In this document: positions 15,804 through 50,293 of the stretch, in pieces | Layout of the letters: every line of letters begins with the position of its first letter | Numbering within the stretch: the first letter of the stretch is position 1 | Notes under the pieces: generated by a model | Told to the model about the DNA's origin: nothing | Seen by the model: only the letters and a program-made list of their open reading frames with translations | Databases searched by the model: none | Program-made: the position numbers and the translations under genes | Virus record (IMG/VR): IMGVR_UViG_2848005981_000005 | Location: 994-64,993 of that record | DNA: 64,000 nt | Direction: 5' to 3' (one strand) | From: a virus | Lineage: Duplodnaviria; Caudoviricetes

Positions 15804-18316
15804 TGAAAGAATATATAGAATTTTTAAAAGACAAGATGGCCATCAGCCGTCAGACCGGGTTCGAGGTCAATCCGGATGAACTGACACCGTCGTTATATCC
15901 CCATGTGAAAGATACTGTTCGCTGGGCGGTGTCCGGTGGTTGCCGTGCCATATTCTCCAGTTTCGGTATGCAGAAAACCGTAACCCAGTTGGAGATACTT
16001 CGGGTAGTCTTGAAACACAAAGGCGGCAAAGGGCTGATAGTTTGTCCCAAACGTGTAGTGGTTGAGTTCCTTACACAAGCGGAACAACATCTGCACATGA
16101 AAGTGACCTATGTACGAACTATGGCTGATGTGATGATATGCCCGACTGACATCATGGTTACGAACTACGAGCGTGTGCGCGACGGTGAAGATGGTGTAAG
16201 AATAGAACCTTCCTACTTCACCGCAACATCATTGGATGAAGCGAGCGTATTACGTGGTTTCGGTACCAAGACCTATCAGGAGTTCCTTCCCTTGTTTGCG
16301 GATGTTCCCTACCGCTTTGTAGCCACCGCCACGCCATCGCCCAACAGATACAAGGAGCTGATACATTATGCCGGTTATCTCGGTGTGATGGATACCGGGC
16401 AGGCACTTACCCGTTTCTTTCAGCGTGACAGCACGAAGGCGAATAACCTTACCCTTTATCCGCACAAGGAGAAGGAGTTCTGGTTGTGGGTAAGTACATG
16501 GGCGTTGTTCCTCACCAAACCGTCCGACCTTGGTTACCCCGATACCGGATATGAATTGCCGGAACTGCGTGTACATGAAGAAGTGGTTAGTGTTGATAAC
16601 TCCACAGCCGGAACTGACCGTGACGGACAAGTGAAGATGTTCCGTGAGGCTGCTCTCGGACTTGCCGACGCAGCGAAAGAACGTCGGGACAACATGCAGG
16701 AAAAGATTGCCCGTGTGATGGAAATCATTAACCGTCCTGAAAACAAAGACGACCATTTCCTTTTATGGCATGACCTGGAGAATGAACGGAAGGCTTTGTG
16801 TGATGCCATACCCGGATGTAAGGCTGTGTACGGCTCGCAGGATGATGAGGAAGCCGACAGAGTAATAGCGGACTTTAAGGACGGCCGTCTGAAATATTTG
16901 GCCGCCAAACCGGAGATGCTCGGTGAGGGTTTGAACTTCCAGTACCACTGCCATAAGGCAATCATGTTCATCGACTACCGTTTTAACGACAAGTTCCAGG
17001 CGATAGCCCGTATCTACCGGTTCATGCAGCAGCATCCGGTTGACCTCTATCTGGTCTATGCGGAAAGTGAGGGCGAGATATACAAGAGCTTCATGCAGAA
17101 GTGGGCGCAACACCGCGAGATGGTAGCCAAGATGACCGATATAGTCCGCGAGAACGGTTTGTTCGGCTTGCAGGCAGAGGAAAAGATGATGCGGTGGATG
17201 TTTGCCAGCAGGGAAGAAAAGTCCGGTAAACTGTGGAGGGCAATCAATAATGACAATGTTCTTGAATGCCAGACTATGGAAAGTAATTCGGTGGACTTGA
17301 TTGTAACCAGCATCCCGTTCTCCAACCACTATGAGTACACTCCGACCTATAACGACTTCGGGCATAATGAGGACAACGGCAAGTTCTTCGAGCAGATGGA
17401 TTATCTTACACCGGAGCTTATGCGTATTCTTAAACCCGGTAGGTTAGCTTGCATCCATGTGAAAGACCGTGTTTTGTTCGGCAACGCTACTGGTGACGGT
17501 ATGCCCACCATCGACCCGTTCAGTGAAATGACTGTATTCCACTACATAAAACACGGTTTCCGCTACATGGGGCGCATCACTGTGGATACGGATGTGGTAA
17601 GGGAGAACAACCAGACTTATCGGCTTGGATATACGGAGATGTGCAAGGACGGTTCAAAGATGGGTATCGGTTGTCCTGAATATGTCCTTCTTTTCCGCAA
17701 GCTTCCTTCTGACACCTCACGGGCCTATGCTGATTTGCCGGTGACCAAGAACAAAAGCGAATATTCGTTAGCCCGTTGGCAGATAGACGCTCATGCAAGT
17801 TGGAAATCTTCGGGTAACTCTCTATTGAGTTACGAGGACATGAAAGGGGCCGGCATTGACAAGATACGCCACCTATTCAGGAACTACGAGCGTGGGCACG
17901 TTTATGATTATGAGGAACACGTGTCATTCGCCGAAGAGTTGGAGGCATACGGAAAACTGCCAAAGACATTCATGGCCGTTGACCCGGTAAGCAAGAAGCC
18001 CTGGATATGGGATGATGTCACCCGGATGCGCACGCTCAATACTAAGCAGTCGCAGAAGAAACGGCAGAACCACATCTGCCCTTTACAACTCGATATTGTT
18101 GAAAGACTGATTGAACGGTACTCAAACAAGGGTGAGTTGGTGTTTGACCCCTTCGGAGGTATCGGCACTGTTCCATATTGCGCTATCAATCTGGGGAGGA
18201 AAGGTCTGTCTACAGAACTGAATTATGACTATTGGAAAGACAGTCTTTCATATCTGTATGAGGCGGAGATGGAGGTCAGCGCACCCACATTGTTTGACTT
18301 GATAAATGTAGGATAA
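15803..18316 (+). CDS. SNF2-like helicase fused to N4/N6 DNA methyltransferase
   Basis: N-half FGMQKT, LDEAS, TATPSPN, GLNFQ. C-half VTSIPF, HICP, DPFGGIGT. Confidence 0.88.
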   Translation: MKEYIEFLKDKMAISRQTGFEVNPDELTPSLYPHVKDTVRWAVSGGCRAIFSSFGMQKTVTQLEILRVVLKHKGGKGLIVCPKRVVVEFLTQAEQHLHMKVTYVRTMADVMICPTDIMVTNYERVRDGEDGVRIEPSYFTATSLDEASVLRGFGTKTYQEFLPLFADVPYRFVATATPSPNRYKELIHYAGYLGVMDTGQALTRFFQRDSTKANNLTLYPHKEKEFWLWVSTWALFLTKPSDLGYPDTGYELPELRVHEEVVSVDNSTAGTDRDGQVKMFREAALGLADAAKERRDNMQEKIARVMEIINRPENKDDHFLLWHDLENERKALCDAIPGCKAVYGSQDDEEADRVIADFKDGRLKYLAAKPEMLGEGLNFQYHCHKAIMFIDYRFNDKFQAIARIYRFMQQHPVDLYLVYAESEGEIYKSFMQKWAQHREMVAKMTDIVRENGLFGLQAEEKMMRWMFASREEKSGKLWRAINNDNVLECQTMESNSVDLIVTSIPFSNHYEYTPTYNDFGHNEDNGKFFEQMDYLTPELMRILKPGRLACIHVKDRVLFGNATGDGMPTIDPFSEMTVFHYIKHGFRYMGRITVDTDVVRENNQTYRLGYTEMCKDGSKMGIGCPEYVLLFRKLPSDTSRAYADLPVTKNKSEYSLARWQIDAHASWKSSGNSLLSYEDMKGAGIDKIRHLFRNYERGHVYDYEEHVSFAEELEAYGKLPKTFMAVDPVSKKPWIWDDVTRMRTLNTKQSQKKRQNHICPLQLDIVERLIERYSNKGELVFDPFGGIGTVPYCAINLGRKGLSTELNYDYWKDSLSYLYEAEMEVSAPTLFDLINVG

Positions 18317-21869: not shown

Positions 21870-22124
21870 ATGGCAACAAAGAAGATTGATGAAAAGAAAA
21901 CATTGAAGTATGCAGTAGCATTCTACTTCTGTACATCAGGTAAGATAAACTTCATGTTAGGCAATAAAATGTATCAGCATATAAATACTGTTTATGACCA
22001 AAGAGAAGATGGCAGAGGCTTCAATACCTGTGAAGTTGTTTATAACTACAAGGCTCAAAAGTACGAGGTTCTGAATGTAGATACAGAGATAGGCAACAAA
22101 GAGATTACGGTATTAAATAATTAA
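21870..22124 (+). CDS. Hypothetical protein
   Basis: ACGATC-ATG start context. Confidence 0.65.
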   Translation: MATKKIDEKKTLKYAVAFYFCTSGKINFMLGNKMYQHINTVYDQREDGRGFNTCEVVYNYKAQKYEVLNVDTEIGNKEITVLNN

Positions 22125-22160
22125 TCAGCAGGGCGAAAGCCCTGCGTAATATAGAAGATT

Positions 22161-22361
22161 ATGAAGCGATATTATTTTGAACTGTTAGATGATGATTATA
22201 ATGATTTGGGTGCATTGATACCGGACGGCAGTAGTAAGAAAACCGCTGTTAATCGTGCGAAAAGATGGATGGTTGATAACAATATTCAGTCTGCCCAATT
22301 AAGCGTAAATAGCATGATTACTGACAATATTTTGGATATAATAAGCATAGAAATAGCATAA
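22161..22361 (+). CDS. Small hypothetical protein
   Basis: GATT-ATG start context. Confidence 0.6.
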   Translation: MKRYYFELLDDDYNDLGALIPDGSSKKTAVNRAKRWMVDNNIQSAQLSVNSMITDNILDIISIEIA

Positions 22362-22404
22362 GTTTTAATCCGGTAGCCTTTGGGCTACCACAATACACAC
22401 GATT

Positions 22405-22602
22405 ATGGAAGCGGATTTAGTTTTAGTTATCAGCCCCGAAGCCCCACTGATGAAACAACTGGGCAAAGTATTGGGTAAGTTATGTAGTATGTGCGATTTT
22501 ACCACCATAGAGAGGGGTGAAAAGTACATCACCATACAGCATGATGAAACTGGGCTTGTAGTGGCTTATACGAGTGAAGAAAGATTGAAAGCGAAACTTT
22601 AA
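22405..22602 (+). CDS. Small hypothetical protein
   Basis: ACACGATT-ATG start context. Confidence 0.65.
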   Translation: MEADLVLVISPEAPLMKQLGKVLGKLCSMCDFTTIERGEKYITIQHDETGLVVAYTSEERLKAKL

Positions 22603-22614
22603 ATATAAATGATT

Positions 22615-22821
22615 ATGAACTCAATAAACGAAAACGGTTGCAGCGTATGCCAGCCCGGTAAAGAGAATTACACTACCTACACAACGAAGTTAGGCAGAAA
22701 GAGAATGAGAATGTATCAGTATGACTACCGTACTGAAAGCGGTGAGTTGTTTTCTTGTTGTGCACCTACCTTAGAGCAGTGCAGAGAAAGACGGGACAAA
22801 TGGCTTAGTTCACAACAATAA
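22615..22821 (+). CDS. DUF3873-like protein
   Basis: NGCSVC..GKENY, YQYDYR..GELFSC..PTLEQCR. Confidence 0.75.
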   Translation: MNSINENGCSVCQPGKENYTTYTTKLGRKRMRMYQYDYRTESGELFSCCAPTLEQCRERRDKWLSSQQ

Positions 22822-22883
22822 CCTGATTGTTGTGTATAACGATTGAAGATATTTCGTTATCTTTGGTTGTGGTAGTACCTTTG
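22811..22883 (+). promoter_or_regulatory. Late-type promoter: palindrome CACAACAAT-N6-ATTGTTGTG plus -7 element TACCTTTG
   Basis: Perfect inverted repeat at 22811-22834 and TAnnTTTG at 22876. Same spacing at four other sites. Confidence 0.75.
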
Positions 22884-22892
22884 GGGTACTAT

Positions 22893-22964
22893 CGCGGGGT
22901 GTAGCAGTGGTAGCTTTTCACTTTGACTTGGTGAAGGTCGGTTGTTCGATTCAGCCCCCCGCAA
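22893..22964 (+). tRNA. Initiator-type tRNA body with GAC (Val) anticodon
   Basis: Acceptor CGCGGGG/CCCCGCA (C1xA72), A73, A11:U24. Anticodon arm TCACT-TTGACTT-GGTGA, variable loop AGGTC, T arm GGTTG-TTCGATT-CAGCC. CCA not encoded. Confidence 0.9.
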
Positions 22965-22996
22965 CTATTGAGTATTAATTTAAATTTGACACGATT

Positions 22997-23386
22997 ATGA
23001 ACATTCTTACATTAAGCATCAAACAGAAGTATTTCGATGAAATCTTGGCAGGCAAGAAAACCCACGAATACCGCGAAATCAGACCAACAAACGCTAAGAA
23101 ATATATCACTTACCTATGTGGCGGTAAAGAATATCCGGCTGATGCAGAACTGCCTGAAGAAGGTGAGGTAGAATTGAAGCCTATCAAGTACGATGCAATC
23201 AAGCTTCTGACAGGTGCATATACGGGTAAACGTCCTTACATCATTATAGAGGTAAAGAATGCAGAAGCAGTAATTCTCACAGATGAAAACGGTAATGATA
23301 TTGTTTACGAATATCAAGGCGAAGAATATCTTGCCGCACAAATGGATTATACTTTGGGTAAGATATTAGAGAAACATATAGATTGA
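22997..23386 (+). CDS. ASCH/PUA-like domain protein
   Basis: LSIKQKYFDEILAGKKTHEYRE. Confidence 0.88.
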   Translation: MNILTLSIKQKYFDEILAGKKTHEYREIRPTNAKKYITYLCGGKEYPADAELPEEGEVELKPIKYDAIKLLTGAYTGKRPYIIIEVKNAEAVILTDENGNDIVYEYQGEEYLAAQMDYTLGKILEKHID

Positions 23387-23416
23387 TTTGTTTAACTTTT
23401 AAAATTAGAAAGCAGA

Positions 23417-23587
23417 GTCGCAAGAAGAATTAACAGAGTAGCCGGGCCTCGCAGAAATATGAACGGTGCAGGGGCTGGTGGTAGATTGGTTGCCAGACGT
23501 GGCGGTGAAGCTGGTACATCACAGTTGGGGTCACGCAGACAGCGTTATAGTGACCTTCGTACTTCATTTGGTTTAAGTGGTGGTTAG
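23417..23587 (+). CDS. Cryptic Arg/Gly-rich peptide P1, 56 aa, inferred GTC start
   Basis: VARRINRVAGPRR...GSRRQRYSDLRTSFGLSGG*. Context AAAGCAGA-GTC. Ends 2 nt before the next ATG. Confidence 0.7.
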   Translation, partial: VARRINRVAGPRRNMNGAGAGGRLVARRGGEAGTSQLGSRRQRYSDLRTSFGLSGG

Positions 23588-23589
23588 CT

Positions 23590-24267
23590 ATGAGCAAGGT
23601 AGAACAAGCGAACCGGTATATAGACCTCATTCGGGTAAAATCGAATGAGGCTTTACTGTTTTTATCACTTGGTAAAGATTCGCTTGTTCTGCTTGATTTA
23701 ATCTATCCGAAGTTTGACCGGATTGTTTGTGTGTTCATGTACTTTGTCAAGAATTTGGAGCATATTAACCGATGGATTGGCTGGACTAAAGCCAAATATC
23801 CAAAGATTGAGTTTGTTCAAGTGCCACACTGGAATCTTACCTACATTCTTAGAGGTGGCTTGTATTGTGTACCCAATCCGAAAGTAAAGCTATTGAAGTT
23901 GGCAGATGTGGTAAAGGCTATGCAGCTTACTCATGGAGTTTATTATACATTCTTGGGCATGAAAAAAGCTGATGGTATGAACCGCAGGCTTATGCTGAAA
24001 GGGTATGAGGTAAACGGTTACGAGAATAACGGTATGGTTTATCCTTTGGCTGATTGGACACAAAAGGATATTCTTGCTTATATGAGGCAGCACAAATTAC
24101 CCGAACCAGTTCGATATTCATTGAAAGCCAGTTCGGGAGTAGGTTTCAATCTTGATTGTATGCTTTGGATGGAGAATAATTACCCGCAAGATTTACAGAG
24201 AATTTACAAAGTTTTCCCAATGGCTGAAAGGGTGCTTTGGGAGTATAATAATCAACAAAAGCAATAG
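23590..24267 (+). CDS. PP-loop (PAPS-reductase-like) adenine nucleotide alpha-hydrolase
   Basis: SLGKDS PP-loop, GMKKADGMNRR, YPLADWT. Confidence 0.87.
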   Translation: MSKVEQANRYIDLIRVKSNEALLFLSLGKDSLVLLDLIYPKFDRIVCVFMYFVKNLEHINRWIGWTKAKYPKIEFVQVPHWNLTYILRGGLYCVPNPKVKLLKLADVVKAMQLTHGVYYTFLGMKKADGMNRRLMLKGYEVNGYENNGMVYPLADWTQKDILAYMRQHKLPEPVRYSLKASSGVGFNLDCMLWMENNYPQDLQRIYKVFPMAERVLWEYNNQQKQ

Positions 24268-24279
24268 AAGGAAAGCCGA

Positions 24280-24486
24280 GTCAGAAGAAAATCAATTGAT
24301 GATATTGCAGAGCAAAGATACAGACTATCTCGTACTTTAACGGGTAATAGGCTGAACAGAGTAAACTCTATTGCAAGAAAGTATATTCGATACATTGAAC
24401 AAACCTTTGGGTATAATGAGGGGAAACAACAAGATGGCGCAAGAAAAGTATCTCGAAGAATTTATATGGGTTTAACTAATGGATGA
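24280..24486 (+). CDS. Cryptic Arg-rich peptide P2, 68 aa, inferred GTC start
   Basis: VRRKSIDDIAEQ...RKVSRRIYMGLTNG*. Context AAAGCCGA-GTC. Its only Met is residue 63. Ends 1 nt before the next ATG. Confidence 0.8.
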   Translation, partial: VRRKSIDDIAEQRYRLSRTLTGNRLNRVNSIARKYIRYIEQTFGYNEGKQQDGARKVSRRIYMGLTNG

Positions 24487-24487
24487 T

Positions 24488-25228
24488 ATGGAATTGTCAA
24501 AATACATAAAGAGTGAATCGATGGAACTTAATCGTTCTGCCATTCACTTTGCAGATTATAACCCCCGGAAACTTTCCGATGAATCACGTAAGACACTGAA
24601 ACGTGGCATCAAGAAGTTTGGTTTAGTCGGTGGAATTGTCGTGAACAAGCGTACAGGTCTTACCGTAGTCAGCGGGCACCAGCGTTTGTCTGTCATGGAC
24701 GAATTGCAAAAGTTTCCCGATAACGACTACCGCATTCGTGTCGATGTCATAGATGTGAACGAGCAGCAGGAAAAGGAGTTGAATATTTTAATGAACAACC
24801 CGAATGCACAAGGTACATGGGATTTTGACGCTCTTGCCCGTATTGTTCCTGATATTGACTGGAAAGATGCAGGATTGACGGATGCCGACTTGAATATGAT
24901 TGGGGTTGATTTCCTTTTGCAGACCGAAGAAGAAAGCTCCATTGCTGACGAACTGGAAAGCATGATGTCGCCTGTAACAGAACAGAAAGAAGCCGATAAA
25001 GCCACCAAGCAGTTGGAACGTGCCGAAAAGGTTGCCCACATGAAGGAAGTCAAGCAACAGGTAAAAGAAAACGCACAGAAGCAAGTCGAGAACATGGATG
25101 CCTATGTGATGTTGTCCTTTGATACCTATGAAGCTAAAGCCGCTTTCTGCGAAAGGTTCGGGTATGATCCGGATATGAAGTTCATAAAGGGAGAAGTATT
25201 TGATGAACAAGTAGAAAGAATAGATTAA
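24488..25228 (+). CDS. ParB/Srx N-terminal domain protein
   Basis: YNPRKL, GIKKFGLV, VSGHQRL. Confidence 0.88.
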   Translation: MELSKYIKSESMELNRSAIHFADYNPRKLSDESRKTLKRGIKKFGLVGGIVVNKRTGLTVVSGHQRLSVMDELQKFPDNDYRIRVDVIDVNEQQEKELNILMNNPNAQGTWDFDALARIVPDIDWKDAGLTDADLNMIGVDFLLQTEEESSIADELESMMSPVTEQKEADKATKQLERAEKVAHMKEVKQQVKENAQKQVENMDAYVMLSFDTYEAKAAFCERFGYDPDMKFIKGEVFDEQVERID

Positions 25229-25247
25229 TTATTGGGAGGAAAGCTGA

Positions 25248-25481
25248 GTTAGAAAGAAAACATATAGCCAGTTATATCAGCAGTCCAGACAAATAATGTA
25301 CAACGCTGGAAGGCAATACGGGTTAGGTTCTGCAAGACAAAGAAACATAAGGGATAGAACGAAATCTATAATGGGAAGATATGCTGAGAAAATAGATAGC
25401 TATTTCTCAAAAAGAGGAGTTGATGTCTATGGAAACAAGCCAATTTCTCGCCGTGTATATATGGGTAACAATAACGGTTAA
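25248..25481 (+). CDS. Cryptic Arg-rich peptide P3, 77 aa, inferred GTT start
   Basis: VRKKTYSQLYQQ...KPISRRVYMGNNNG*. Context AAAGCTGA-GTT, with an in-frame TGA immediately before. Confidence 0.8.
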   Translation, partial: VRKKTYSQLYQQSRQIMYNAGRQYGLGSARQRNIRDRTKSIMGRYAEKIDSYFSKRGVDVYGNKPISRRVYMGNNNG

Positions 25482-25485
25482 AATT

Positions 25486-25629
25486 ATGATTGGCGATTTT
25501 ATACTTTGGATAAGGAATGTTCTAAAGCAAAACCTGTTTTGTGTTCATCATTATGTTTGGAAAGGTAGTGTGATGTTCTCTGAGTTCAGGTATGAACAAT
25601 GTGAGAAATGTGGAAAATTAAAGAAGTAA
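25486..25629 (+). CDS. Small Zn-ribbon protein
   Basis: FCVHHY...CEKCGK; coupled to the terminase small subunit. Confidence 0.6.
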   Translation: MIGDFILWIRNVLKQNLFCVHHYVWKGSVMFSEFRYEQCEKCGKLKK

Positions 25630-25630
25630 T

Positions 25631-26146
25631 ATGAGCAATAGTGAATCTCAAAATAGAAAAGGTAAAGGAGGAAGAAAGCCAAAGTTTGATTATACAAGCG
25701 AGGACTTTCTTTCTCTCGTGGAATCGTATGCCAAAAAGGGATTCACTGACAAGGAAATAGCCTATGCCATAGGGATTTTACCACAAACTTTCTGCGAAAA
25801 GAAAAGTGAGTACACCGAAATATCCGAAGTCTTAGCGCGTGGGCGCGCGACAATCAATGCCACTGTAAGGGCTAAATTCCTTGCAATGGCTCTCGGTGGC
25901 ATAAAAACCAAAAGCACCGTGGTAAGAAAGCTCCGTGATTCAGAGGGAAATTTGACAGGTGAGGATGAATTACAAGTTAGCGAAAGCGAGTTGGCTCCTA
26001 ATTTGCAAGCAATGTCCGTTTGGCTGTACCACCATGATGAAGATTGGAGAAAGATTGAACGCAAGCAGGATGAAGATGCTGATATTCCAACAGACATAGA
26101 GCACGGCATCAACATTGATTCCTGGATTAAAGACAAGCTGAAATGA
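25631..26146 (+). CDS. terS: Terminase small subunit
   Basis: GRKPKF, HTH, APNLQAMSVWL; directly before terL. Confidence 0.82.
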   Translation: MSNSESQNRKGKGGRKPKFDYTSEDFLSLVESYAKKGFTDKEIAYAIGILPQTFCEKKSEYTEISEVLARGRATINATVRAKFLAMALGGIKTKSTVVRKLRDSEGNLTGEDELQVSESELAPNLQAMSVWLYHHDEDWRKIERKQDEDADIPTDIEHGINIDSWIKDKLK

Positions 26147-27411
26147 TAGTACCTCAAGAAATTTACCATCCATTATATGAGGATAAGGAAAAATTTATAA
26201 TTCTTATCACCGGTGGGCGTGGTAGCGGAAAGTCTTTCAATGCTTCTACCTTTATTGAGCGGTTGACTTTTGAAATGACTCCCGTAGAGAAGATAGTTCA
26301 TCAGATTCTTTACACCCGTTACACGATGGTTTCTGCCGGTATGTCTATCATCCCCGAAATGATGGAGAAGATAGATTTGGACGGTACCACGAAATATTTC
26401 AAGACCACAAAGACGGATATAGTCAATAAGATGACTAAGAGCCGTATAATGTTCCGAGGCATCAAGACTTCTTCCGGGAACCAGACAGCAAAACTGAAAT
26501 CCATTCAAGGCATTACGACTTTTGTCTGCGATGAAGCGGAAGAGTGGACAAGCGAAGATGAGTTCGACAAGATAATGCTCTCCATTCGCAAGAAGGGTAT
26601 TCAGAACCGGATTATTATCATAATGAACCCATGCGATTCCAATCACTTCATCTACAAGAAATACATTGAGAAAACTCACAAGCTGGTAGAGATTGATGGT
26701 GTGCAGGTTCAGATTTCCACTCATCCGAATGTGCTCCACATTCATACGACTTACTTTGATAATTTGGAGAATCTTTCACCGGAGTTTCTAAAAGAGGTAG
26801 AGGATATAAAGGTGAGTAATCCTGAAAAGTATGGTCATGTGGTTATCGGCCGGTGGGCTGACGTTGCAGAAGGTGCTGTGTTCAAGAAGTGGGGAATTGT
26901 GAAAGAGTTCCCGCAGGAATGTAAAAAGGTAGGAATAGGGCAGGACTTCGGCTTTACTAATGATCCTTCCGCTGCTGTAAGATGTGGCATTATTGATAAC
27001 CGTTTGTATGTTGATGAACTTTTCTATGAAACGGATATGCTTTCGTCGGCTATTGCCAATAGGTTAAAGCCTTTCTCTATGAAAGTTTTTGCCGATTCGC
27101 AAGACCCTCGATTGATTCAAGAGATAAAGAACAGAGGCGTGAATATCTATCCGGTAGATAAGTTTCCCGGCTCCATCAAAGCGGGTATTGATAAGATTAA
27201 AGACATGGAGTTCTTTGTAACAGAACGCTCTTACAATATTATTACTGAACTTCGGAAATATGTTTGGGATAAAGATAAGGATGGAAACTACATCAATGAG
27301 CCAGTAGATGAATATAATCATTTGATGGATGCTATTAGATATTATGTATTGGGTTGTTTGCTTGGACGCATTTTGAAGCCGAAAGATTTAACTGGAATAT
27401 TCACACACTAA
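26143..27411 (+). CDS. terL: Terminase large subunit (PBSX family)
   Basis: GGRGSGKS, DEAEE, MNP, GQDFGF, NHLMDAIRY. Confidence 0.96.
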   Translation: MIVPQEIYHPLYEDKEKFIILITGGRGSGKSFNASTFIERLTFEMTPVEKIVHQILYTRYTMVSAGMSIIPEMMEKIDLDGTTKYFKTTKTDIVNKMTKSRIMFRGIKTSSGNQTAKLKSIQGITTFVCDEAEEWTSEDEFDKIMLSIRKKGIQNRIIIIMNPCDSNHFIYKKYIEKTHKLVEIDGVQVQISTHPNVLHIHTTYFDNLENLSPEFLKEVEDIKVSNPEKYGHVVIGRWADVAEGAVFKKWGIVKEFPQECKKVGIGQDFGFTNDPSAAVRCGIIDNRLYVDELFYETDMLSSAIANRLKPFSMKVFADSQDPRLIQEIKNRGVNIYPVDKFPGSIKAGIDKIKDMEFFVTERSYNIITELRKYVWDKDKDGNYINEPVDEYNHLMDAIRYYVLGCLLGRILKPKDLTGIFTH

Positions 27412-35822: not shown

Positions 35823-36026
35823 GTCAGGAAAAGGACTAAATCAGGTTGGGATATTGCCCGACAAGCTGCAAGAATTGCAGAGAGACGTTATGGGAGTAAT
35901 GCAAGTAATCCTAATAATCTTGTGAATCGGATTACAGGGCGGTACTTGGGAAATTTCAACAAGAATGGAACGAGTTGGAATAAGCAGGTTTCTCGTAAGA
36001 CTTATATGGGAAATGCTAATGGGTAA
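35823..36026 (+). CDS. Cryptic Arg-rich peptide P4, 67 aa, inferred GTC start
   Basis: VRKRTKSGWDIARQ...KQVSRKTYMGNANG*. Context AAAGCTGA-GTC, with an in-frame TGA immediately before. Confidence 0.8.
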   Translation, partial: VRKRTKSGWDIARQAARIAERRYGSNASNPNNLVNRITGRYLGNFNKNGTSWNKQVSRKTYMGNANG

Positions 36027-44854: not shown

Positions 44855-47794
44855 GTGGAACAAATCGACATCAAAGACATATCCGGTGCTATCCTGCTTA
44901 CTACCCTTCCCAATGAAGGCTGCAAGCGTAAGTCTACTCTTATGAAGGAGGACTACATCACGTTAAAGTTCTCCTTGGAGAGTCCTATATTCTTCAAACT
45001 TGGTTCATACGTGGAGTGCGACTTCGGGCTGTTCGAGGTGTGCGACTTGCAGAAGCCGGTATTCAACACCGATAACGCAGGCTACGACTATGAGTTGCAG
45101 CTTGACGCCCACTACTGGAAATGGAAAAACAAAATCTTTAAATATACCCCCGAAGTGGCCGGGCAGGAAGCGTCCTGGAATCTCACCGCTTCACTTGATG
45201 TTCAAGCCGGTATAGTCCTTAGAAATTTAAAAGCTCTTGGTTACAAATACAAAGGACAAGATTTTGTTTTCTCCATTGACAGCACTGTAGAGAATAAGGC
45301 GCTACTGATGACTTATGACAACATCAACATCCTTGACGCCTGCTTCTCTATGGCAAAGAAATGGGATTGCGAATGCTGGGTGACTGAAAACATCATCCAT
45401 TTCGGACGTTGTGAGTCTGGCGATGCGGTGGATTTCGAGATTGGGAAAAACGTGCAGGAAATGCCACGATCAGAATCCCGGTCCACCTACGCCACCCGTA
45501 TCTATGCTTTCGGCTCAACAAAGAATATCCCATCTGACTACCGCCCCGTTGATGAGACTGTAGTACTGAACGGCGTGGTGCAAAAACGCTTAATGTTGCC
45601 CGAAGGAACTCCGTACATAGACGCTTATCCTGGTATGACCATCGAGGAAGCCATCGAACAAGTGGTTATCTTCGATGAGATCTATCCCCGAAGGGGCGGC
45701 ACGATGTCGGACATTACCACCAAGGAATACACTGACAAAATAGAAAATGCCGACGGGACTACCACTGAAAAGAAGTGGAATGCCTACCGTTTCAAGGATA
45801 CTGGCATTACCTTCTCAAAGGACTATATCCTTCCCGGTAATGAATTGAAAATCACTTTCCAATCCGGCAAGTTGAATGGTATGGAATTCGCTGTGACATT
45901 CGACCCTGAGGGAAAGCCGGAGAAACTGGAGAACGGTAGCTGGAACCCTGAGGCACAGCTTTGGGAGATAGTCAGGAATGAGGACTACGGCAGACCGCTT
46001 CCGGATGGAGTGCTTATCCCCGAAAATGGTGATACTTACATCTTATCGGGCTGGAATCCCATGAAGATAGCTGAAATGGGACTGGTAGCAGAAGCACAGT
46101 TGGAGTTAAAGGACAAAGCCGATAAGTACGTTGCCAAATCAAAGATAGACCCTTCTACATATAACTGTAAGATGATGTCGGATGTCGCATATAGTGAGGA
46201 CGGCATTCACAACCTCTACAGCATCGGTCAAAAGGTCAACCTTATCAACAAGGCCTATTTCGAGAACGGAAGGCAGTCAAGGATTATCGGATTTGAATTC
46301 AATCTTGACCTGCCTTATGATTCCCCTATATATACTGTCGGGGAAACCGCTGCCTATTCCCGTATTGGGGAGCTGGAGGAGAAGGTTGAGAGCCTTACTC
46401 TGAAGGGACAGACCTATACTGGCAGTGGTAGTAGTGGTGTGTATGTGATAAGAAGGAATGACTCTACACCGGCCACGGATAATAACGTGTTTTCGGCATT
46501 GCGTTCCTTGGCTATGTTCCTTCGCAAAGACCAGTCTGACGGCACAAATTTTCTGTTGAAGTTCGGCGAGTTTATCGACTCGATGGTCGCGGGCAAGGGT
46601 GCCGGAATATTCCCTGACGGCCGTATGCAGCTGTCCCGCCTCGAGGTCCGCGACAGCCTTACCGTCCTTGAGCTTATCTTCAACCGTCTCTCCGCCATGG
46701 AAAGCGACTATTCATTCTCCGAGTCCGGTACCATCGAAAGTGTATCGCAGCTTGAAGACGGCACATACAGCCTGAAGATGAAGAAACGGTGGGATAACGA
46801 CTTTACTGCACTGGCAGAAAACGATGTTGTATATGGTGTTGTCAATGACCTTGCATCAGGTGGCGGCAAGTATTATACCTCCTGGCTACGTGTCTTGCAT
46901 GTTGACATCTCAGCCAATACGATCAACGCTGTGATGTACCCTGATAGCGAGGTGCCGGGTGGCAAGAATTATCCTCCTGAGCCGTTGATGATATTATCAC
47001 ACCGTGGCAACCCGGTTGATACTGAACGGCAGGGTTATTGGTATCTGTCATCCCGTGAGCATTGTATCTGCATGCTTAACGGGGTCACAAAACCCGTCCT
47101 TGAGGAAAGCAACTATTCGGTGATCGTCGGCAGGCTGAAGCATCTGTCTCTGTTCGACAACCTGCCCATCAACTACCTGCACTCTTATATCTACGTTCGG
47201 GGATTGGTAGCGCAGGACATCCACCGCATCGACTTCCAAGGCGTATTGCCCCGCATCGCCAACGACCGTGGCGAGTGGAGCATGGAGACCGCCACGGGAG
47301 CAGAACCCTACCAAGCCGACCGCGAGGCACAGACCGAGACTGTACGTGTGATGATGTACGATACCGTGTGGCACTACGGATGCAAGTGGATGTGTCTTGT
47401 TTCCGGCACTACCGACGAACCCCAATACGGTTCCGCATCCTGGGCAATGATCGAGGGCAATCCGGATTTCAGCATCGATATAGAAAGCTCCAATGGCTGG
47501 TACTTCGATGCGGAGCGTTTTGCGACCACCCTCACCATTACCGGTGAGCTGTACAACCGTGACGTGACGGCGCATATCCTTGACAGTGATGTGGAGTGGA
47601 CGCGCGACACGGGCAACGTCACCGAGGACAACGCCTGGGCGGTCGCACACGCGGAAACCGGCAAGTCGCTGCCGCTGACGGTCAACGACCTCGGTCCCAA
47701 CTATATGAACATGACCGGGTGCAAGTTTATCGCAAGGGTGCTGCTGCGTGACGGGCAGAATAATTATGAGACAATGAATTATATAACTTTCTAA
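44855..47794 (+). CDS. Baseplate hub / tail tip protein
   Basis: About 980 aa after Dit; TRIYAFGSTKN. GTG start inferred. Confidence 0.78.
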   Translation: MEQIDIKDISGAILLTTLPNEGCKRKSTLMKEDYITLKFSLESPIFFKLGSYVECDFGLFEVCDLQKPVFNTDNAGYDYELQLDAHYWKWKNKIFKYTPEVAGQEASWNLTASLDVQAGIVLRNLKALGYKYKGQDFVFSIDSTVENKALLMTYDNINILDACFSMAKKWDCECWVTENIIHFGRCESGDAVDFEIGKNVQEMPRSESRSTYATRIYAFGSTKNIPSDYRPVDETVVLNGVVQKRLMLPEGTPYIDAYPGMTIEEAIEQVVIFDEIYPRRGGTMSDITTKEYTDKIENADGTTTEKKWNAYRFKDTGITFSKDYILPGNELKITFQSGKLNGMEFAVTFDPEGKPEKLENGSWNPEAQLWEIVRNEDYGRPLPDGVLIPENGDTYILSGWNPMKIAEMGLVAEAQLELKDKADKYVAKSKIDPSTYNCKMMSDVAYSEDGIHNLYSIGQKVNLINKAYFENGRQSRIIGFEFNLDLPYDSPIYTVGETAAYSRIGELEEKVESLTLKGQTYTGSGSSGVYVIRRNDSTPATDNNVFSALRSLAMFLRKDQSDGTNFLLKFGEFIDSMVAGKGAGIFPDGRMQLSRLEVRDSLTVLELIFNRLSAMESDYSFSESGTIESVSQLEDGTYSLKMKKRWDNDFTALAENDVVYGVVNDLASGGGKYYTSWLRVLHVDISANTINAVMYPDSEVPGGKNYPPEPLMILSHRGNPVDTERQGYWYLSSREHCICMLNGVTKPVLEESNYSVIVGRLKHLSLFDNLPINYLHSYIYVRGLVAQDIHRIDFQGVLPRIANDRGEWSMETATGAEPYQADREAQTETVRVMMYDTVWHYGCKWMCLVSGTTDEPQYGSASWAMIEGNPDFSIDIESSNGWYFDAERFATTLTITGELYNRDVTAHILDSDVEWTRDTGNVTEDNAWAVAHAETGKSLPLTVNDLGPNYMNMTGCKFIARVLLRDGQNNYETMNYITF

Positions 47795-47796
47795 TT

Positions 47797-48954
47797 ATGC
47801 AGACTATACAGAAGAAGATAGAGGTCAACTACCGCCCTCTCCAGACCAGCGGCGGGATAGAGGTTGTCGGCAGCGTACCGGACGTGCAGGTGTACCAGGC
47901 TGACAAGGCCGAGTACACTCCGGACTACACGCTTACCCCCCTGACGCTGTTCCCCCGGTGCAATGCCACCGACCCGGATGCGGTGACCAAAGTGGGCGCG
48001 GTCAACGCGTCATTGGTCAACATGAAGTGGTACGAGCGCTTGAACGGTGTGCGGACATTGATTACATCTGCCAACAAGAGCTATGTCATTACCGAGACCG
48101 GAGCCGAGAAGGGTAAGATACAAGTGAAAAAGAATACCGTTCCCGGCAGTCCGGTAACACTGGAGTTCTACGCCGAGTATGTCGATGCGAAGCGTACCGG
48201 ACAGACGCACGTCTACCGTTTCAGCCGTCTTGTTCGCGCCGTAGATGGCAGCGAAGCACAGCCTAAGCTGGTGATTGATTCTCCTTCTTCTTTGGATTGG
48301 AATCCTTGCCGTGATATATCAAAACATATCATTACCGCCAAGCTGCTTGTCGGCGATGTAGATGTCACAGCAACCAACAAGTGCAAGTTCTTCTTCTATC
48401 GGAAGCTGAATACGGGCGCACTGGAGCAGATTACCGACGGTAACGGCGACAATGACTGGGAGTTCGTATCACTGACAAAGAACGTGCTTACCATAGACCG
48501 GGACTATATCGGCCACGAACAGACCTACGTTGTGAAAGCATCGTACTCGAAGGACGGTGCTCCTTCATCCAAGCCGGACAGTGACATAGACTATGTCTCC
48601 ACCACCATCCGCAGGCGTATTCCCAGCATCGAGATTGACTGGGAGGGATTTCCGCAGCAGGTGGCAGACGGAACCAAGATGATATACCCGAAACCGGTCA
48701 TCCGTGATACGGCAGGGATTGTCCCCAATCCCCAGGCCATCCTTGAGTGCGAATGGTACACGAAGGCGGCCGGCGCCTCCTCATACGTGCTGGCCGCTGC
48801 CGGGTACTCGCCCTCCATCCCATGCACCGACGGCATGATGCTACAGCTGAAGGTGATTGACAAGGGCCCGTATGCGGCGGTGGTGACATCTGACGGCAAG
48901 TACGTGACGGATGACAGCGGTAAGTTTATAGTGGCAAGGAAAAGGGATGTTTAA
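47797..48954 (+). CDS. Tail/baseplate structural protein
   Basis: Beta-rich, Ig-like composition, in the tail module. Confidence 0.65.
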   Translation: MQTIQKKIEVNYRPLQTSGGIEVVGSVPDVQVYQADKAEYTPDYTLTPLTLFPRCNATDPDAVTKVGAVNASLVNMKWYERLNGVRTLITSANKSYVITETGAEKGKIQVKKNTVPGSPVTLEFYAEYVDAKRTGQTHVYRFSRLVRAVDGSEAQPKLVIDSPSSLDWNPCRDISKHIITAKLLVGDVDVTATNKCKFFFYRKLNTGALEQITDGNGDNDWEFVSLTKNVLTIDRDYIGHEQTYVVKASYSKDGAPSSKPDSDIDYVSTTIRRRIPSIEIDWEGFPQQVADGTKMIYPKPVIRDTAGIVPNPQAILECEWYTKAAGASSYVLAAAGYSPSIPCTDGMMLQLKVIDKGPYAAVVTSDGKYVTDDSGKFIVARKRDV

Positions 48955-48972
48955 TTTCTAATAATTTGTGAT

Positions 48973-49257
48973 ATGGCATTTTATATCAAGGTTACAAAGC
49001 AAGTTGCGGACAAGCTGGGAGTGGCGGGAATCCGCAACAGCACTGCCGACGGCAATGTGCTGTTATGGCAGGCCGATGTGGCAGGCTTTCCCGGCGATAC
49101 GGTATTCGACCGGGCGGCAGTAGTCGGGGGCGTGTGCCTTTCCCCGCAGCAGGCCAAGGGTGAGATAGACGGCGTGGAAGATCCGGTGGAGGTCGCCACT
49201 CCGGAGGGTTTCATGGATAAAGACGGGGAGGAGGTGACCGATGAGCGTAGCGAGTAA
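48973..49257 (+). CDS. Hypothetical tail-region protein
   Basis: Coupled ORF in the tail module. Confidence 0.6.
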   Translation: MAFYIKVTKQVADKLGVAGIRNSTADGNVLLWQADVAGFPGDTVFDRAAVVGGVCLSPQQAKGEIDGVEDPVEVATPEGFMDKDGEEVTDERSE

Positions 49258-50293
49258 GGTCGGGCAGGTAATCTTTTCGCAAAAGTCTGGCGTTTACATG
49301 CCAGCGATTATGTGCGACAAAGGCGACCTCTATCAAGAGTATGATGGTGAATCGGGGGCTCCGACAAACATAGCCCCCGACTTCACCACGATGAAGCCGA
49401 CGCTCTCCTTCCTTCTCACCTCCTCACGGGTGGCTGAGGGGATTGTGGTGCCCTCAGCCATCAGGTGGTATTTCAATGACGTCGAGATCAAGTTCTCGGG
49501 TAACGTCTCCACAAACACGTTCGGCGGCGAGACGGGGCATTTCAAGTTCATTCCATATAAAGCAGGCACTACAAACTATTACGGGCTTCAGATCGTGAAG
49601 AACCTGGTGAAGGCGTCATCCGGTGCGAGCTGCAGCGTCAAGGCGGTGGCTACGGTGACCGTGGGCAACGTGTCGGATGAGGTGCAGTTCGTCTACAGCA
49701 TCCCTATCACCAAGGGTGTGGGCAACCAGAACGTGGTGACCATCGTTTCCGGAGATGACAAATACTTTGCCATCCGTGAGAAGGGAGGCAGTGTCGTTCT
49801 CACGGCGATGGCGCGGCGTGGAGCGTCAGAGATCACCTCCGGACTGACCTACAAGTGGTCCAGGATGGTTAACGGTACCTGGCAGACACTCGTCGACCAG
49901 ACTGGCAAGAGTCTGACCGTCACGGACAGCCTGGTTGACACTACGGGCATCTTCAAGGTGGAGGTGTCGCAGGGCGGCAATCTGATAGGCCTTGACACGC
50001 AGACGGTGATGGACTTGTCAGACCCCTACGACATCATAACTAATCCCAATCCCGAGGATGAGACGATTGTTTCCGGTTCCGGAGGTTCGGTGACTTATAC
50101 GCCTATCCTTGTCAAGCGGGGACAGACCACGAAGGCAATGAATATGCTGTTCTATTTTGTCTTTATGGATTCGGCAGGGGTCATTCTCAATCCGGCTACG
50201 GCGAATGTGGCGGCGGCAAGCGGTACCTGCACCGAAGCGATGTGCCAGCAGGCAGGCGGCAATGTTTCATGGACATTCTCAACGGCAGCATGA
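49241..50293 (+). CDS. Tail structural protein with Ig-like domains
   Basis: LTYKW...GKSLTV Ig-like motifs. Confidence 0.65.
   Translation: MSVASKVGQVIFSQKSGVYMPAIMCDKGDLYQEYDGESGAPTNIAPDFTTMKPTLSFLLTSSRVAEGIVVPSAIRWYFNDVEIKFSGNVSTNTFGGETGHFKFIPYKAGTTNYYGLQIVKNLVKASSGASCSVKAVATVTVGNVSDEVQFVYSIPITKGVGNQNVVTIVSGDDKYFAIREKGGSVVLTAMARRGASEITSGLTYKWSRMVNGTWQTLVDQTGKSLTVTDSLVDTTGIFKVEVSQGGNLIGLDTQTVMDLSDPYDIITNPNPEDETIVSGSGGSVTYTPILVKRGQTTKAMNMLFYFVFMDSAGVILNPATANVAAASGTCTEAMCQQAGGNVSWTFSTAA

What the first reader, a model, noticed from the sequence alone, without database searches (positions are those of the whole stretch)
22893..26146. Operon architecture: tRNA - ASCH - P1 - PP-loop enzyme - P2 - ParB-like - P3 - Zn ribbon - terminase
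Seen: each of the three enzyme-like genes is followed by one peptide, with very short gaps leading on into terS. Established: PP-loop ATPases adenylate substrates (TilS, TtcA and ThiI on tRNA; PAPS-reductase-like DndC in DNA modification), ASCH is a PUA-like nucleic-acid-binding fold, and ParB-N genes often lie near phage terminases and DNA-modification genes. Three inferences: (a) the PP-loop and ASCH proteins mature or modify the odd tRNA; (b) the PP-loop enzyme activates the peptides' C-terminal Gly for conjugation to DNA or protein; (c) translational coupling makes downstream packaging genes depend on the tRNA, acting as a checkpoint.
Basis: partly seen in the sequence, partly recalled or inferred. 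Interest (0 to 1): 0.72.

Follow-up and report, generated by a model that had tools for sequence, protein, structure and literature searches.

The report
Phage start tRNA reading valine codons
A common gut Bacteroides phage carries a tRNA built like the cell's protein-start tRNA but reading valine codons, and a family of small phage genes next to it begins with exactly those codons, which points to a private start signal not described in nature.

Summary
The gene order is real: tRNA, ASCH, P1, PAPS-reductase-like, P2, ParB-like, P3, Zn-ribbon ORF, terS, TerL. The three "peptides" are paralogues of a large uncharacterised family of small basic proteins. A fourth copy lies at 35823-36026.

They lack canonical starts. 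Each begins at GTC or GTT, preceded by GA and often by an in-frame TGA. Codons directly after it show purifying selection. Canonical relatives begin Met-Ala-Arg-Arg-Lys-Ser at that same position.

The tRNA has anticodon GAC on an initiator-type body: unpaired 1:72, G2:C71, C3:G70, G4:C69, A73, A11:U24. In a host genome only the initiator tRNA has an unpaired 1:72.

Across relatives, anticodon and first codon change together: GAC with GTC/GTT, UAC with GTA, AAC with GTT, GGU with ACC/ACT, CAU or no tRNA with ATG.

Best reading: a phage initiator tRNA with a reassigned anticodon starts the P genes (about 0.78, comparative evidence only). The enzyme-peptide and enzyme-tRNA ideas are not supported. 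P function is unknown.

The parts
22858..22865 (+). TATCTTTG, a match to the Bacteroides promoter -7 motif TAnnTTTG (motif recalled, not from a call), 28 nt upstream of the tRNA
   Evidence: tRNA-less relatives carry GTATCTTTG just upstream of ASCH, after a hairpin. Inference only.
22893..22964 (+). Initiator-type tRNA with anticodon GAC (22925-22927). It has C1xA72, G2:C71, C3:G70, G4:C69, A73 and A11:U24. The anticodon loop is UUGACUU. It has no three G:C pairs in the anticodon stem, and CCA is not encoded.
22997..23386 (+). ASCH-domain protein, 129 aa
   Evidence: Pfam ASCH 4.4e-5; phrog_625 4.4e-17
23417..23587 (+). P1, 56 aa, starting at GTC. It is the ortholog of the small basic gene found before the PAPS-like gene in every lineage examined.
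23590..24267 (+). PAPS-reductase-like PP-loop protein, 225 aa
   Evidence: Pfam PAPS_reduct 4.9e-9; phrog_424 2.2e-27
24280..24486 (+). P2, 68 aa, starting at GTC after AAGGAAAGCCGA. It has no canonical start. Its stop overlaps the ParB ATG. It is an optional cassette.
   Evidence: fold
24479..25228 (+). ParB-N-like protein, 249 aa
   Evidence: phrog_9353 8.7e-100 and phrog_620 4e-24; Pfam ParB_N is below its cut-off
25248..25481 (+). P3, 77 aa, starting at GTT directly after an in-frame TGA and GAGGAAAGC
25486..25629 (+). Small Zn-ribbon-like ORF, 47 aa. It is an optional cassette, absent in about 31 of 82 loci by gap length.
   Evidence: phrog_4188
25631..26146 (+). Terminase small subunit
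   Evidence: phrog_309 2e-34
26143..27411 (+). Terminase large subunit
   Evidence: Pfam Terminase_3 1.2e-24 and Terminase_3C 5e-22
35823..36026 (+). P4, 67 aa, starting at GTC directly after an in-frame TGA. It is the fourth family member, in the tail region, and is followed by a hairpin.

Best explanation
The tRNA at the head of this operon derives from an initiator tRNA. Its anticodon has changed from CAU to GAC.

Proposed mechanism, all steps inferred: valyl-tRNA synthetase charges it; the formyltransferase and IF2 accept it because of its unpaired 1:72 and acceptor stem; EF-Tu excludes it. It then starts translation of the phage's P genes (P1-P4 here) at GUC or GUU.

The two bases before the start codon (G, A) can pair with U38 and U37 of the tRNA, giving a five-base-pair contact. 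P2- and P3-type genes also carry a strong Shine-Dalgarno-like AGGAGG eight bases upstream.

The P genes encode small, very basic, hypervariable proteins. P2 is predicted to be a helical hairpin. They sit as cassettes between packaging-module genes, and their function is unknown.

ASCH, the PAPS-reductase-like protein and the ParB-like protein form an ordinary conserved head-of-packaging module that starts with AUG.

Shown by comparison: the tRNA's initiator-type features, the real coding status of the P genes, the position of their first codon, and the joint change of anticodon and first codon. Inferred: charging, formylation, P-site use, and the biological purpose.
For: 1. The tRNA is real and under selection. 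On 20 phage variants plus the host initiator, the cloverleaf is 95% paired. Twelve pairs show changes on both sides, and 0 of 500 shuffles reached this.

2. Initiator-type body. 1:72 is unpaired in 21 of 21 rows. G2:C71, C3:G70, G4:C69 and A11:U24 are each 21 of 21. In host genome G001, 1 of 52 distinct tRNAs has an unpaired 1:72, and it is the initiator. These positions are the formyltransferase determinants, and formylation does not depend on the amino acid (passages of PMC9976931). Other lineages carry CxU, AxA, CxC, UxU, UxC or GxA at 1:72. This suggests the mismatch itself is kept, not a particular pair.

3. P genes are coding from the GTY onward. Synonymous versus non-synonymous changes are 33:20 in codons 2-12 and 259:95 in the rest. 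In the shifted frames they are 11:50, 9:52, 43:316 and 48:301.

4. No other start is available. GTY is the first codon after an in-frame stop in 87 of 150 distinct GTY-first ORFs. Five of 94 distinct P proteins have no ATG/GTG/TTG in frame anywhere. All 143 of 143 motif hits carry GTT or GTC.

5. Canonical relatives start at the same place. The family profile finds 274 clusters. Of the 35 proteins fetched, 26 begin Met-Ala/Pro followed by the basic run.

6. Anticodon and first codon change together, counted on distinct P ORFs:
- GAC: GTT 41 and GTC 47 of 88
- UAC: GTA 2 of 2
- GGU: ACT 2 and ACC 4 of 6
- AAC: GTT 1 of 1
- no tRNA: ATG 12 of 12
P1 orthologs begin ATG with tRNA(CAU) or with no tRNA, GTA with UAC, and ACC with GGU. 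In a further AAC lineage, 6 of 6 loci have a P1-like ORF starting GTT right after TGA.

7. Positions -2 and -1 are GA in 88 of 88 ORFs (GAC class) and 5 of 6 (GGU class), opposite U37 and U38/C38. They are TT in 11 of 12 ATG-start genes, opposite A37 A38 of the host initiator loop. Pairing between position 37 and position -1 at initiation has been shown by compensatory mutation (passages of bioRxiv 10.1101/2022.05.02.490318).

8. Engineered initiator tRNAs with Val anticodons start translation at GUU or GUC (abstract of bioRxiv 10.1101/2021.05.25.445580; passages of PMC11744186).
Against: - The three consecutive G:C pairs of the anticodon stem are absent in every non-CAU variant. These pairs are called critical for P-site targeting (passage of PMC11744186). 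They are present only in the CAU-type phage tRNA.
- There is no protein, ribosome or tRNA-charging data. Three RNA libraries held the region only as contigs, which show no starts or ends.
- The host genome examined has no tRNA-Val(GAC), only UAC in 4 copies, so a codon-supply role is conceivable.
- In whole-sequence identity, several variants tie with tRNA-Pro (0.70-0.72) rather than standing nearest the initiator.
- Many loci are close relatives, and some contigs were fetched twice (for example L250 and L253). The number of independent anticodon switches is therefore small: one or two contigs to a few lineages per class.
- A few alleles have an in-frame canonical start a few codons upstream (L160, L184).
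- In window P1, the codon before GTC is AGA rather than a stop, and an ATG lies 14 codons downstream.
- For the start-codon table, the start was chosen from the set ATG, GTN, ACN. This set covers all classes but is not assumption-free.
Confidence: 0.78

Rival explanations
1. The tRNA is an ordinary elongator tRNA-Val that supplies GUC/GUU decoding. The P ORFs start at downstream canonical codons or are made by coupling or read-through from the upstream gene.
For: - The host genome G001 has tRNA-Val(UAC) only.
- Window P1 and P3 have downstream ATGs.
- Window P1 and P2 lie in the frame of the upstream gene (read).
Against: - 1:72 is unpaired in all variants, while neighbouring acceptor pairs co-vary.
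- The first codon follows the anticodon in the UAC, AAC and GGU lineages.
- Codons 2-12 are under purifying selection.
- The frame relative to the upstream gene differs between alleles, and one to three stops intervene.
- Val codons in 20 long ORFs of the window show no GTY excess: GTT 136, GTC 94, GTA 141, GTG 156.
Confidence: 0.07
2. One reading: ASCH and the PP-loop protein modify the tRNA, and/or the PP-loop protein adenylates the C-terminal Gly of the peptides for conjugation.
For: - tRNA-ASCH spacing is fixed at 24-37 nt wherever the tRNA exists.
- P1 precedes the PAPS-like gene in every lineage examined.
- Most P proteins end in Gly.
- RAP44 has an unrelated small basic ATG-start ORF before its PAPS-like gene.
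Against: - The enzyme genes occur without the tRNA: RAP44, LR1 and MT835636, plus 14 tRNA-less loci.
- P2 and P3 slots are empty in 16 of 79 loci or hold alleles under 60% identical.
- P4 is not beside an enzyme.
- The P2 model is a helical hairpin.
- Some alleles end in D or K.
Confidence: 0.08
3. The tRNA is a decoy or replacement that evades or absorbs a host tRNA-cleaving defence, with an altered anticodon loop. Its match to the P-gene first codons is secondary.
For: Phage tRNAs with anticodon-loop changes that escape anticodon nucleases are described (title and abstract of PMC10264068, seen in the listing). This tRNA's loop, UU-NNN-UU, is unusual, with U at position 37.
Against: A decoy would not require the first codon of up to seven P genes per genome to follow each anticodon change. 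It also would not require GA at -2/-1.
Confidence: 0.04
4. The P elements are non-coding repeats (regulatory RNA or recombination sites), not genes.
For: The conserved 5' nucleotide motif and the cassette-like replacement between strains.
Against: - The strong excess of synonymous change is seen in one frame only.
- 274 protein clusters, including ATG-start members, match the family profile.
- The structure prediction is confident: pLDDT 86.1, pTM 0.71.
Confidence: 0.02

Closest known systems
Bacterial initiator tRNA (tRNA-fMet)
   Same: It shares the unpaired 1:72, G2:C71, C3:G70, G4:C69, A73 and purine11:pyrimidine24. The D arm and variable loop are close to the Phocaeicola/Bacteroides initiator. 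A CAU-anticodon version with three G:C pairs sits at the same genomic place in relatives L263 and L264.
   Different: The anticodon is GAC (UAC, AAC or GGU in relatives). The three G:C pairs are lost. The loop is UU-NNN-UU, with U37 in place of a purine.
Engineered orthogonal initiator tRNAs: i-tRNA(AAC) for GUU starts, the amber initiator, and anticodon-mutant sets
   Same: An initiator body with a changed anticodon starts translation at the matching non-AUG codon with the matching amino acid (abstract; passages).
   Different: Those are laboratory constructs that keep the three G:C pairs. This one is natural, serves one gene family, and has a remodelled anticodon arm plus fixed -2/-1 bases on its mRNAs.
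Phage-encoded suppressor tRNAs with stop-codon recoding (known in crAss-like and other gut phages; recalled, no call)
   Same: A phage tRNA changes the reading of a codon class for phage genes.
   Different: There a stop codon is reassigned during elongation. Here the start codon is reassigned, and only for P genes. The other genes of the operon start with ATG.
PAPS-reductase-like plus ParB-like gene pair upstream of phage terminases (IbrA/IbrB-like; name recalled)
   Same: The same pair in the same order occurs in RAP44, LR1 and BS-TP2.
   Different: Nothing special is seen in the window's copies. The tRNA and the P cassettes are additions found only in this Bacteroidales phage group.

Membership tests
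Bacterial initiator tRNA | No Watson-Crick pair at 1:72 | tested here: met
   Unpaired in 21 of 21 aligned rows. In host G001 only the initiator, 1 of 52 distinct tRNAs, shares this. Other mismatch types occur in other lineages; 2 variants have U:A.
Bacterial initiator tRNA | G2:C71, C3:G70, G4:C69 and A73 (formyltransferase determinants, PMC9976931 passage) | tested here: met
   The three pairs are 21 of 21. A73 is present in 29 of 30 distinct GAC variants. The GGU variants have C73.
Bacterial initiator tRNA | Purine 11 : pyrimidine 24 | tested here: met
   A11:U24 in 21 of 21 rows. A purine at position 11 occurs in 5 of 52 host tRNAs.
Bacterial initiator tRNA | Three consecutive G:C pairs at the base of the anticodon stem | tested here: not met
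   The window stem is UCACU/GGUGA. Pairs 30:42 are A:U in 19 of 21 rows and 32:40 U:G in 20 of 21 (alignment columns).
Bacterial initiator tRNA | Anticodon CAU | tested here: not met
   GAC
Bacterial initiator tRNA | Formylated, bound by IF2, placed in the P site | not testable with these tools
   Needs biochemistry.
Elongator tRNA-Val | A35, C36 and A73 (Val identity, PMC9976931 passage) | tested here: met
   Anticodon GAC and A73
Elongator tRNA-Val | Paired 1:72, as in elongators | tested here: not met
   The host tRNA-Val(UAC) is only 0.61-0.66 identical.
Pfam PAPS_reduct (PF01507) | Score above the gathering cut-off | tested here: met
   36.9 bits against 22.5
Pfam ASCH (PF04266) | Score above the gathering cut-off | tested here: met
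   24.6 bits against 21.2, covering residues 6-36 only
Pfam ParB_N (PF02195) | Score above the gathering cut-off | tested here: not met
   16.6 bits against 26.3. PHROG ParB-like families match at 4e-24.
Ubiquitin-like sulfur or peptide carriers (ThiS/MoaD/TtuB type; considered for idea b) | Beta-grasp fold with a C-terminal Gly-Gly | tested here: not met
   The P2 model has two helices plus short strands. P2, P3 and P4 end in NG; only P1 ends in GG. P1 itself was not modelled.

The most novel reading that the evidence does not exclude
Gut and environmental phages carry a natural, evolvable orthogonal initiation system. It consists of a phage initiator tRNA whose anticodon has switched several times (CAU to GAC, UAC, AAC and GGU, and possibly UUU). 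With each switch, the start codons and the -1/-2 bases of a private set of small genes changed in concert. Those genes would then be translated only in the presence of the phage's own tRNA, and would begin with formyl-Val or formyl-Thr.
Probability: 0.7. Interest if true: 0.95.

Novelty: categorically new. Interest (0 to 1): 0.9.

Why it matters
To my knowledge (recalled), every natural initiator tRNA described so far reads AUG-type codons through a CAU anticodon. Start-codon reassignment has existed only as an engineering feat. I found no report of a natural non-CAU initiator in five full-text searches, nor in the BS-TP2 paper, which has 0 occurrences of 'tRNA'.

If this reading is right:
- Gene callers miss a whole family of phage genes. 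The window's P2 and P4 get no whole-gene call at a canonical start, and P1 and P3 are called too short.
- Phages would have a way to make a gene set depend on their own tRNA.
- Nature would offer ready-made orthogonal initiator/start-codon pairs that work without the three G:C pairs, apparently by using extra tRNA-mRNA base pairs.

The system is testable. BS-TP2 is a cultured, prevalent temperate phage of Bacteroides salyersiae (33.5% of 930 viromes; passages of PMC12694917). It carries the same tRNA and a TGA-GTC P1.

Tried and rejected
- Read-through of the PAPS TAG into P2, or of the ASCH stops into P1: rejected. The frame relative to the upstream gene differs among alleles, and one to three stops intervene.
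- TGA read as a sense codon before the GTY: rejected. The position is T, C or A and never G (0 of 160). Nothing upstream could start translation.
- Rfam 'evalue' scan of 4.5 kb: it missed the tRNA and gave only a chance-level rli28 match (E 0.46). The narrow scan found the tRNA.
- MFE folding of the tRNA alone: z -1.65, not informative.
- Whole-sequence identity to the host tRNAs was not decisive. The window tRNA is 0.74 to the initiator, but other variants tie with tRNA-Pro.
- Pfam and PHROGs on the P proteins and on ten canonical family members: nothing above noise.
- Foldseek with the P2 model. PDB: no match at E <= 0.001, best E 2.0. BFVD: only an uncharacterised family member, E 0.011, TM 0.76. 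P function therefore stays unknown.
- RNA evidence. Three metatranscriptome runs hold 29-52% of the sampled words, but only as contigs. These show no starts, ends or strand, and DNA may be present in such libraries. The raw-read run X18 laid 0 reads. No claim of expression is made.
- My first automatic start-codon tables mis-anchored the N-terminus. They were replaced by the Q-anchored tables.
- tRNA(UUU) variants with AxA at 1:72: no P-like gene starting with AAA or AAG was found. Left open.
- Supplementary files of the papers were not consulted.

Full report
WHAT IS THERE. The window is 64,000 of the 64,993 bases of a virus record. Its nearest named relative is the temperate Bacteroides salyersiae phage BS-TP2, at 85% identity over 41% of the 4.7-kb query.

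On the + strand the region reads as follows. A TATCTTTG motif lies at 22858; it fits the Bacteroides -7 promoter consensus, which I recall and did not test. Then come the tRNA (22893-22964), ASCH (22997-23386), a small ORF P1, a PAPS-reductase-like PP-loop gene (23590-24267), P2, a ParB-like gene (24479-25228), P3, a 47-aa Zn-ribbon-like ORF (25486-25629), terS, TerL and portal. The gaps are 1-30 nt, or the genes overlap.

THE PEPTIDES ARE ONE GENE FAMILY WITHOUT NORMAL STARTS. The three intergenic stretches share the motif GAAAGCNGAGTNNNAAGAA: 3 matches against 0.21 expected, with 0 of 100 shuffles reaching 3. They also share similar C-termini...FGLSGG...YMGLTNG...YMGNNNG.

P2 has no ATG, GTG or TTG that could give the whole protein. 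In P3 the conserved reading frame is preceded directly by TGA. A profile search of stop-to-stop ORFs found a fourth member at 35823-36026. It again follows TGA and lies in the tail region, not after an enzyme.

In 79 related loci the PAPS-to-ParB slot is empty in 16. Otherwise it holds one of at least six unrelated-looking alleles, each with the same 5' motif and the same ...GL(S/T)NG end. BS-TP2 has P1 only. Over all loci there are 26 clusters at under 60% identity, with up to four cassettes per locus in this group (L160) and up to seven in the Thr-type phages.

THEY ARE TRANSLATED, FROM THE GTY CODON.
- Within 16 allele clusters, synonymous versus non-synonymous changes are 33:20 in codons 2-12 and 259:95 further on. 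In the two shifted frames they are 11:50, 9:52, 43:316 and 48:301.
- The codon after the motif is GTT or GTC in 143 of 143 motif hits.
- In a motif-independent profile search, 150 of 162 distinct ORFs have GTC (103) or GTT (47) as the first start-like codon. In 87 of them it is the very first codon after an in-frame stop.
- Five of 94 distinct proteins contain no ATG/GTG/TTG in frame at all. An example is the L137 allele.
- A profile of 23 alleles finds 274 clusters among 1.84 billion representatives. Of the 35 I fetched, 26 begin Met-Ala/Pro followed by the same Arg/Lys run, so their N-terminus coincides with the Val of the window's genes.
- None of these proteins belongs to a Pfam or PHROG family.

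THE tRNA IS BUILT LIKE AN INITIATOR.
- Rfam scores it at 39.5 bits.
- Twenty distinct phage variants, aligned with the host initiator, support the cloverleaf. It is 95% paired, 12 pairs show double changes, and 0 of 500 shuffles reach this.
- Position 1:72 is never paired (21 of 21). G2:C71, C3:G70, G4:C69, G5:C68 and A11:U24 never vary. Pairs 6:67 and 7:66, the anticodon stem and the T stem co-vary.
- In the Phocaeicola genome that carries a prophage of this group, only the initiator, 1 of 52 distinct tRNAs, has an unpaired 1:72 or starts CGCGG.
- A review passage names the unpaired C1-A72, helped by A73, G2-C71, C3-G70 and G4-C69, as the identity set of the formyltransferase. It names R11:Y24 as an initiator feature. 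It states that formylation does not depend on the amino acid, and that A35, C36 and A73 are valine identity elements (PMC9976931, passages).
- What the tRNA lacks are the CAU anticodon and the three G:C pairs of the anticodon stem. A passage of PMC11744186 calls these pairs critical for P-site targeting.

ANTICODON AND FIRST CODON CHANGE TOGETHER. This is the strongest evidence. Loci were fetched through canonical family members, through ASCH, and through a tRNA pattern. In them, the tRNA 24-37 nt upstream of ASCH has these forms:
- Anticodon GAC in 217 loci, with 30 distinct sequences.
- UAC, with CxU at 1:72.
- AAC, with UxC, CxU, AxA, CxC, UxU or U:A at 1:72.
- GGU, with GxA at 1:72 and C73.
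- CAU, with U:A at 1:72 and three G:C pairs in the anticodon stem.
- Absent altogether.

Loci, not contigs, were counted, and some contigs were fetched twice. The GGU class rests on two contigs. The UAC class rests on four. The CAU class rests on two.

The first codons of distinct P ORFs are as follows:
- With GAC: GTT 41 and GTC 47 of 88.
- With UAC: GTA 2 of 2.
- With GGU: ACT 2 and ACC 4 of 6, four of them directly after TGA.
- With AAC: GTT 1 of 1.
- With no tRNA: ATG 12 of 12.

Two loci that seemed to break the rule, L258 and L259, carry a tRNA homolog with the GAC arm but degenerate D and T loops, which ARAGORN missed. The orthologous P1 gene begins ATG where the tRNA is CAU or absent, GTA with UAC, and ACC with GGU. 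It begins GTC with GAC. In six further AAC(AxA) loci, a P1-like ORF 397-398 nt after the tRNA begins GTT right after TGA, 6 of 6. The other genes of these operons start with ATG.

The bases at -2 and -1 also follow the tRNA. They are GA in 88 of 88 (GAC) and 5 of 6 (GGU), opposite U37 and U38/C38 of the loops UUGACUU and UUGGUUC. They are TT in 11 of 12 ATG-start genes, opposite A37 A38 of the host initiator loop CUCAUAA. [quoted passage not shown] About half of the alleles (the P2/P3 type) also have AGGAGG-like sequence at -14 to -8.

HOW IT MOST LIKELY WORKS. The operon's first product is a tRNA that I infer to be charged with valine, formylated, and used in the P site to open the P genes at GA-GUY. 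Five tRNA-mRNA base pairs, and for some genes a strong Shine-Dalgarno sequence, would stand in for the missing G:C pairs. Laboratory precedents exist: i-tRNA(AAC) at GUU with valine (abstract) and other anticodon mutants (passages).

I cannot say why the P genes need a private start. Options are timing, keeping P proteins silent outside the phage's own expression programme, or a particular N-terminus. In the canonical Met-Ala/Pro forms, methionine removal (inferred) would likewise leave a small residue before the basic run.

P2 folds in prediction as two helices (residues 6-19 and 22-43), with the N- and C-terminal segments paired (pLDDT 86.1, pTM 0.71). No informative structural neighbour was found.

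THE ENZYME GENES. PAPS-like, ParB-like, terS and TerL occur in the same order without a tRNA and without P-profile hits in Riemerella phage RAP44, Lactobacillus phage LR1 and MT835636. ASCH-P1-PAPS-ParB occurs without a tRNA in 14 loci. They therefore do not depend on the tRNA. P2, P3 and the Zn-ribbon ORF are optional. Only the P1-before-PAPS adjacency is universal in this group.

RIVALS. A codon-supply elongator is unlikely. The mismatch at 1:72 is maintained in six different forms. The phage shows no GTY bias: GTT 136, GTC 94, GTA 141, GTG 156 in 20 long ORFs. Supply would also not explain the first-codon rule. Non-coding repeats are excluded. A defence-evasion tRNA does not explain the covariation.

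LIMITS. Everything rests on sequence comparison.
- RNA libraries gave contigs only.
- The start-codon tables choose the start from the set ATG, GTN and ACN near a conserved Gln anchor.
- The number of independent switches is small.

NOVELTY. Five full-text searches and the BS-TP2 paper, which has 0 occurrences of 'tRNA', gave no report of a natural initiator-type tRNA with a non-CAU anticodon, or of GUC/ACC-start gene families. That no such case is known is otherwise my recollection.

Noticed in passing
L351, L359, L382 (viral contigs): A tRNA on the same scaffold with anticodon UUU (Lys), AxA or U:A at 1:72 and C73. No P-like gene starting with AAA or AAG was found nearby.
   Followed up: partly
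L258:4830-4905, L259 (same sequence): A homolog of the GAC tRNA with an intact acceptor and anticodon arm but non-canonical D and T loops. ARAGORN does not call it. The P genes there still start with GTC.
   Followed up: partly
L002:3955-4902, and TerL in L015, L018, L033, L050, L053, L054, L065, L072: TerL is interrupted between residues 393 and 392-422 by about 0.9 kb. In L002 the insert reads through as an intein-like segment, with an HNH-like ORF inside.
   Followed up: no
P0005 (95 aa, on a 5,034-nt contig): A protein that joins the first ~39 residues of the window's ASCH to the C-terminal 55 residues of P3. This is either a deletion variant lacking P1, PAPS, P2 and ParB, or an assembly artefact.
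   Followed up: no
L235:3336-3470 (Riemerella phage RAP44): An unannotated 44-aa basic ORF with an ATG start lies just before the PAPS-like gene. It does not match the P profile but stands in the P1 position.
   Followed up: partly
L132:3002-3076 and L199: A second, degenerate copy of the GAC tRNA lies downstream of the first in L132, and L199 has two pattern matches. The P1 allele in L132 starts with ATG (MARRQNRNL...).
   Followed up: no
L162 (viral contig): Two PAPS-like matches in tandem, at 626 and 1386 nt after the tRNA, before the P2 cassette.
   Followed up: no
window 16001-18000 and 46001-50000: G+C rises to 0.50-0.55 against about 0.40 elsewhere.
   Followed up: no
window 22000-26500: The permissive Rfam scan of 4.5 kb did not list the tRNA, which the 141-base scan scored at 39.5 bits. 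This is a filter effect to keep in mind.
   Followed up: yes
window 24260-24469, run X1: A contig of a metatranscriptome library replaces the P2 cassette with 194 other letters. This is the same allele replacement as seen in the viral contigs.
   Followed up: no
L263, L264 (viral contigs): G+C-rich relatives carry a CAU-anticodon, three-G:C initiator tRNA 29 nt upstream of ASCH, and an ATG-start P1 (MPRTTFSTSNY...). This may be the ancestral state.
   Followed up: partly
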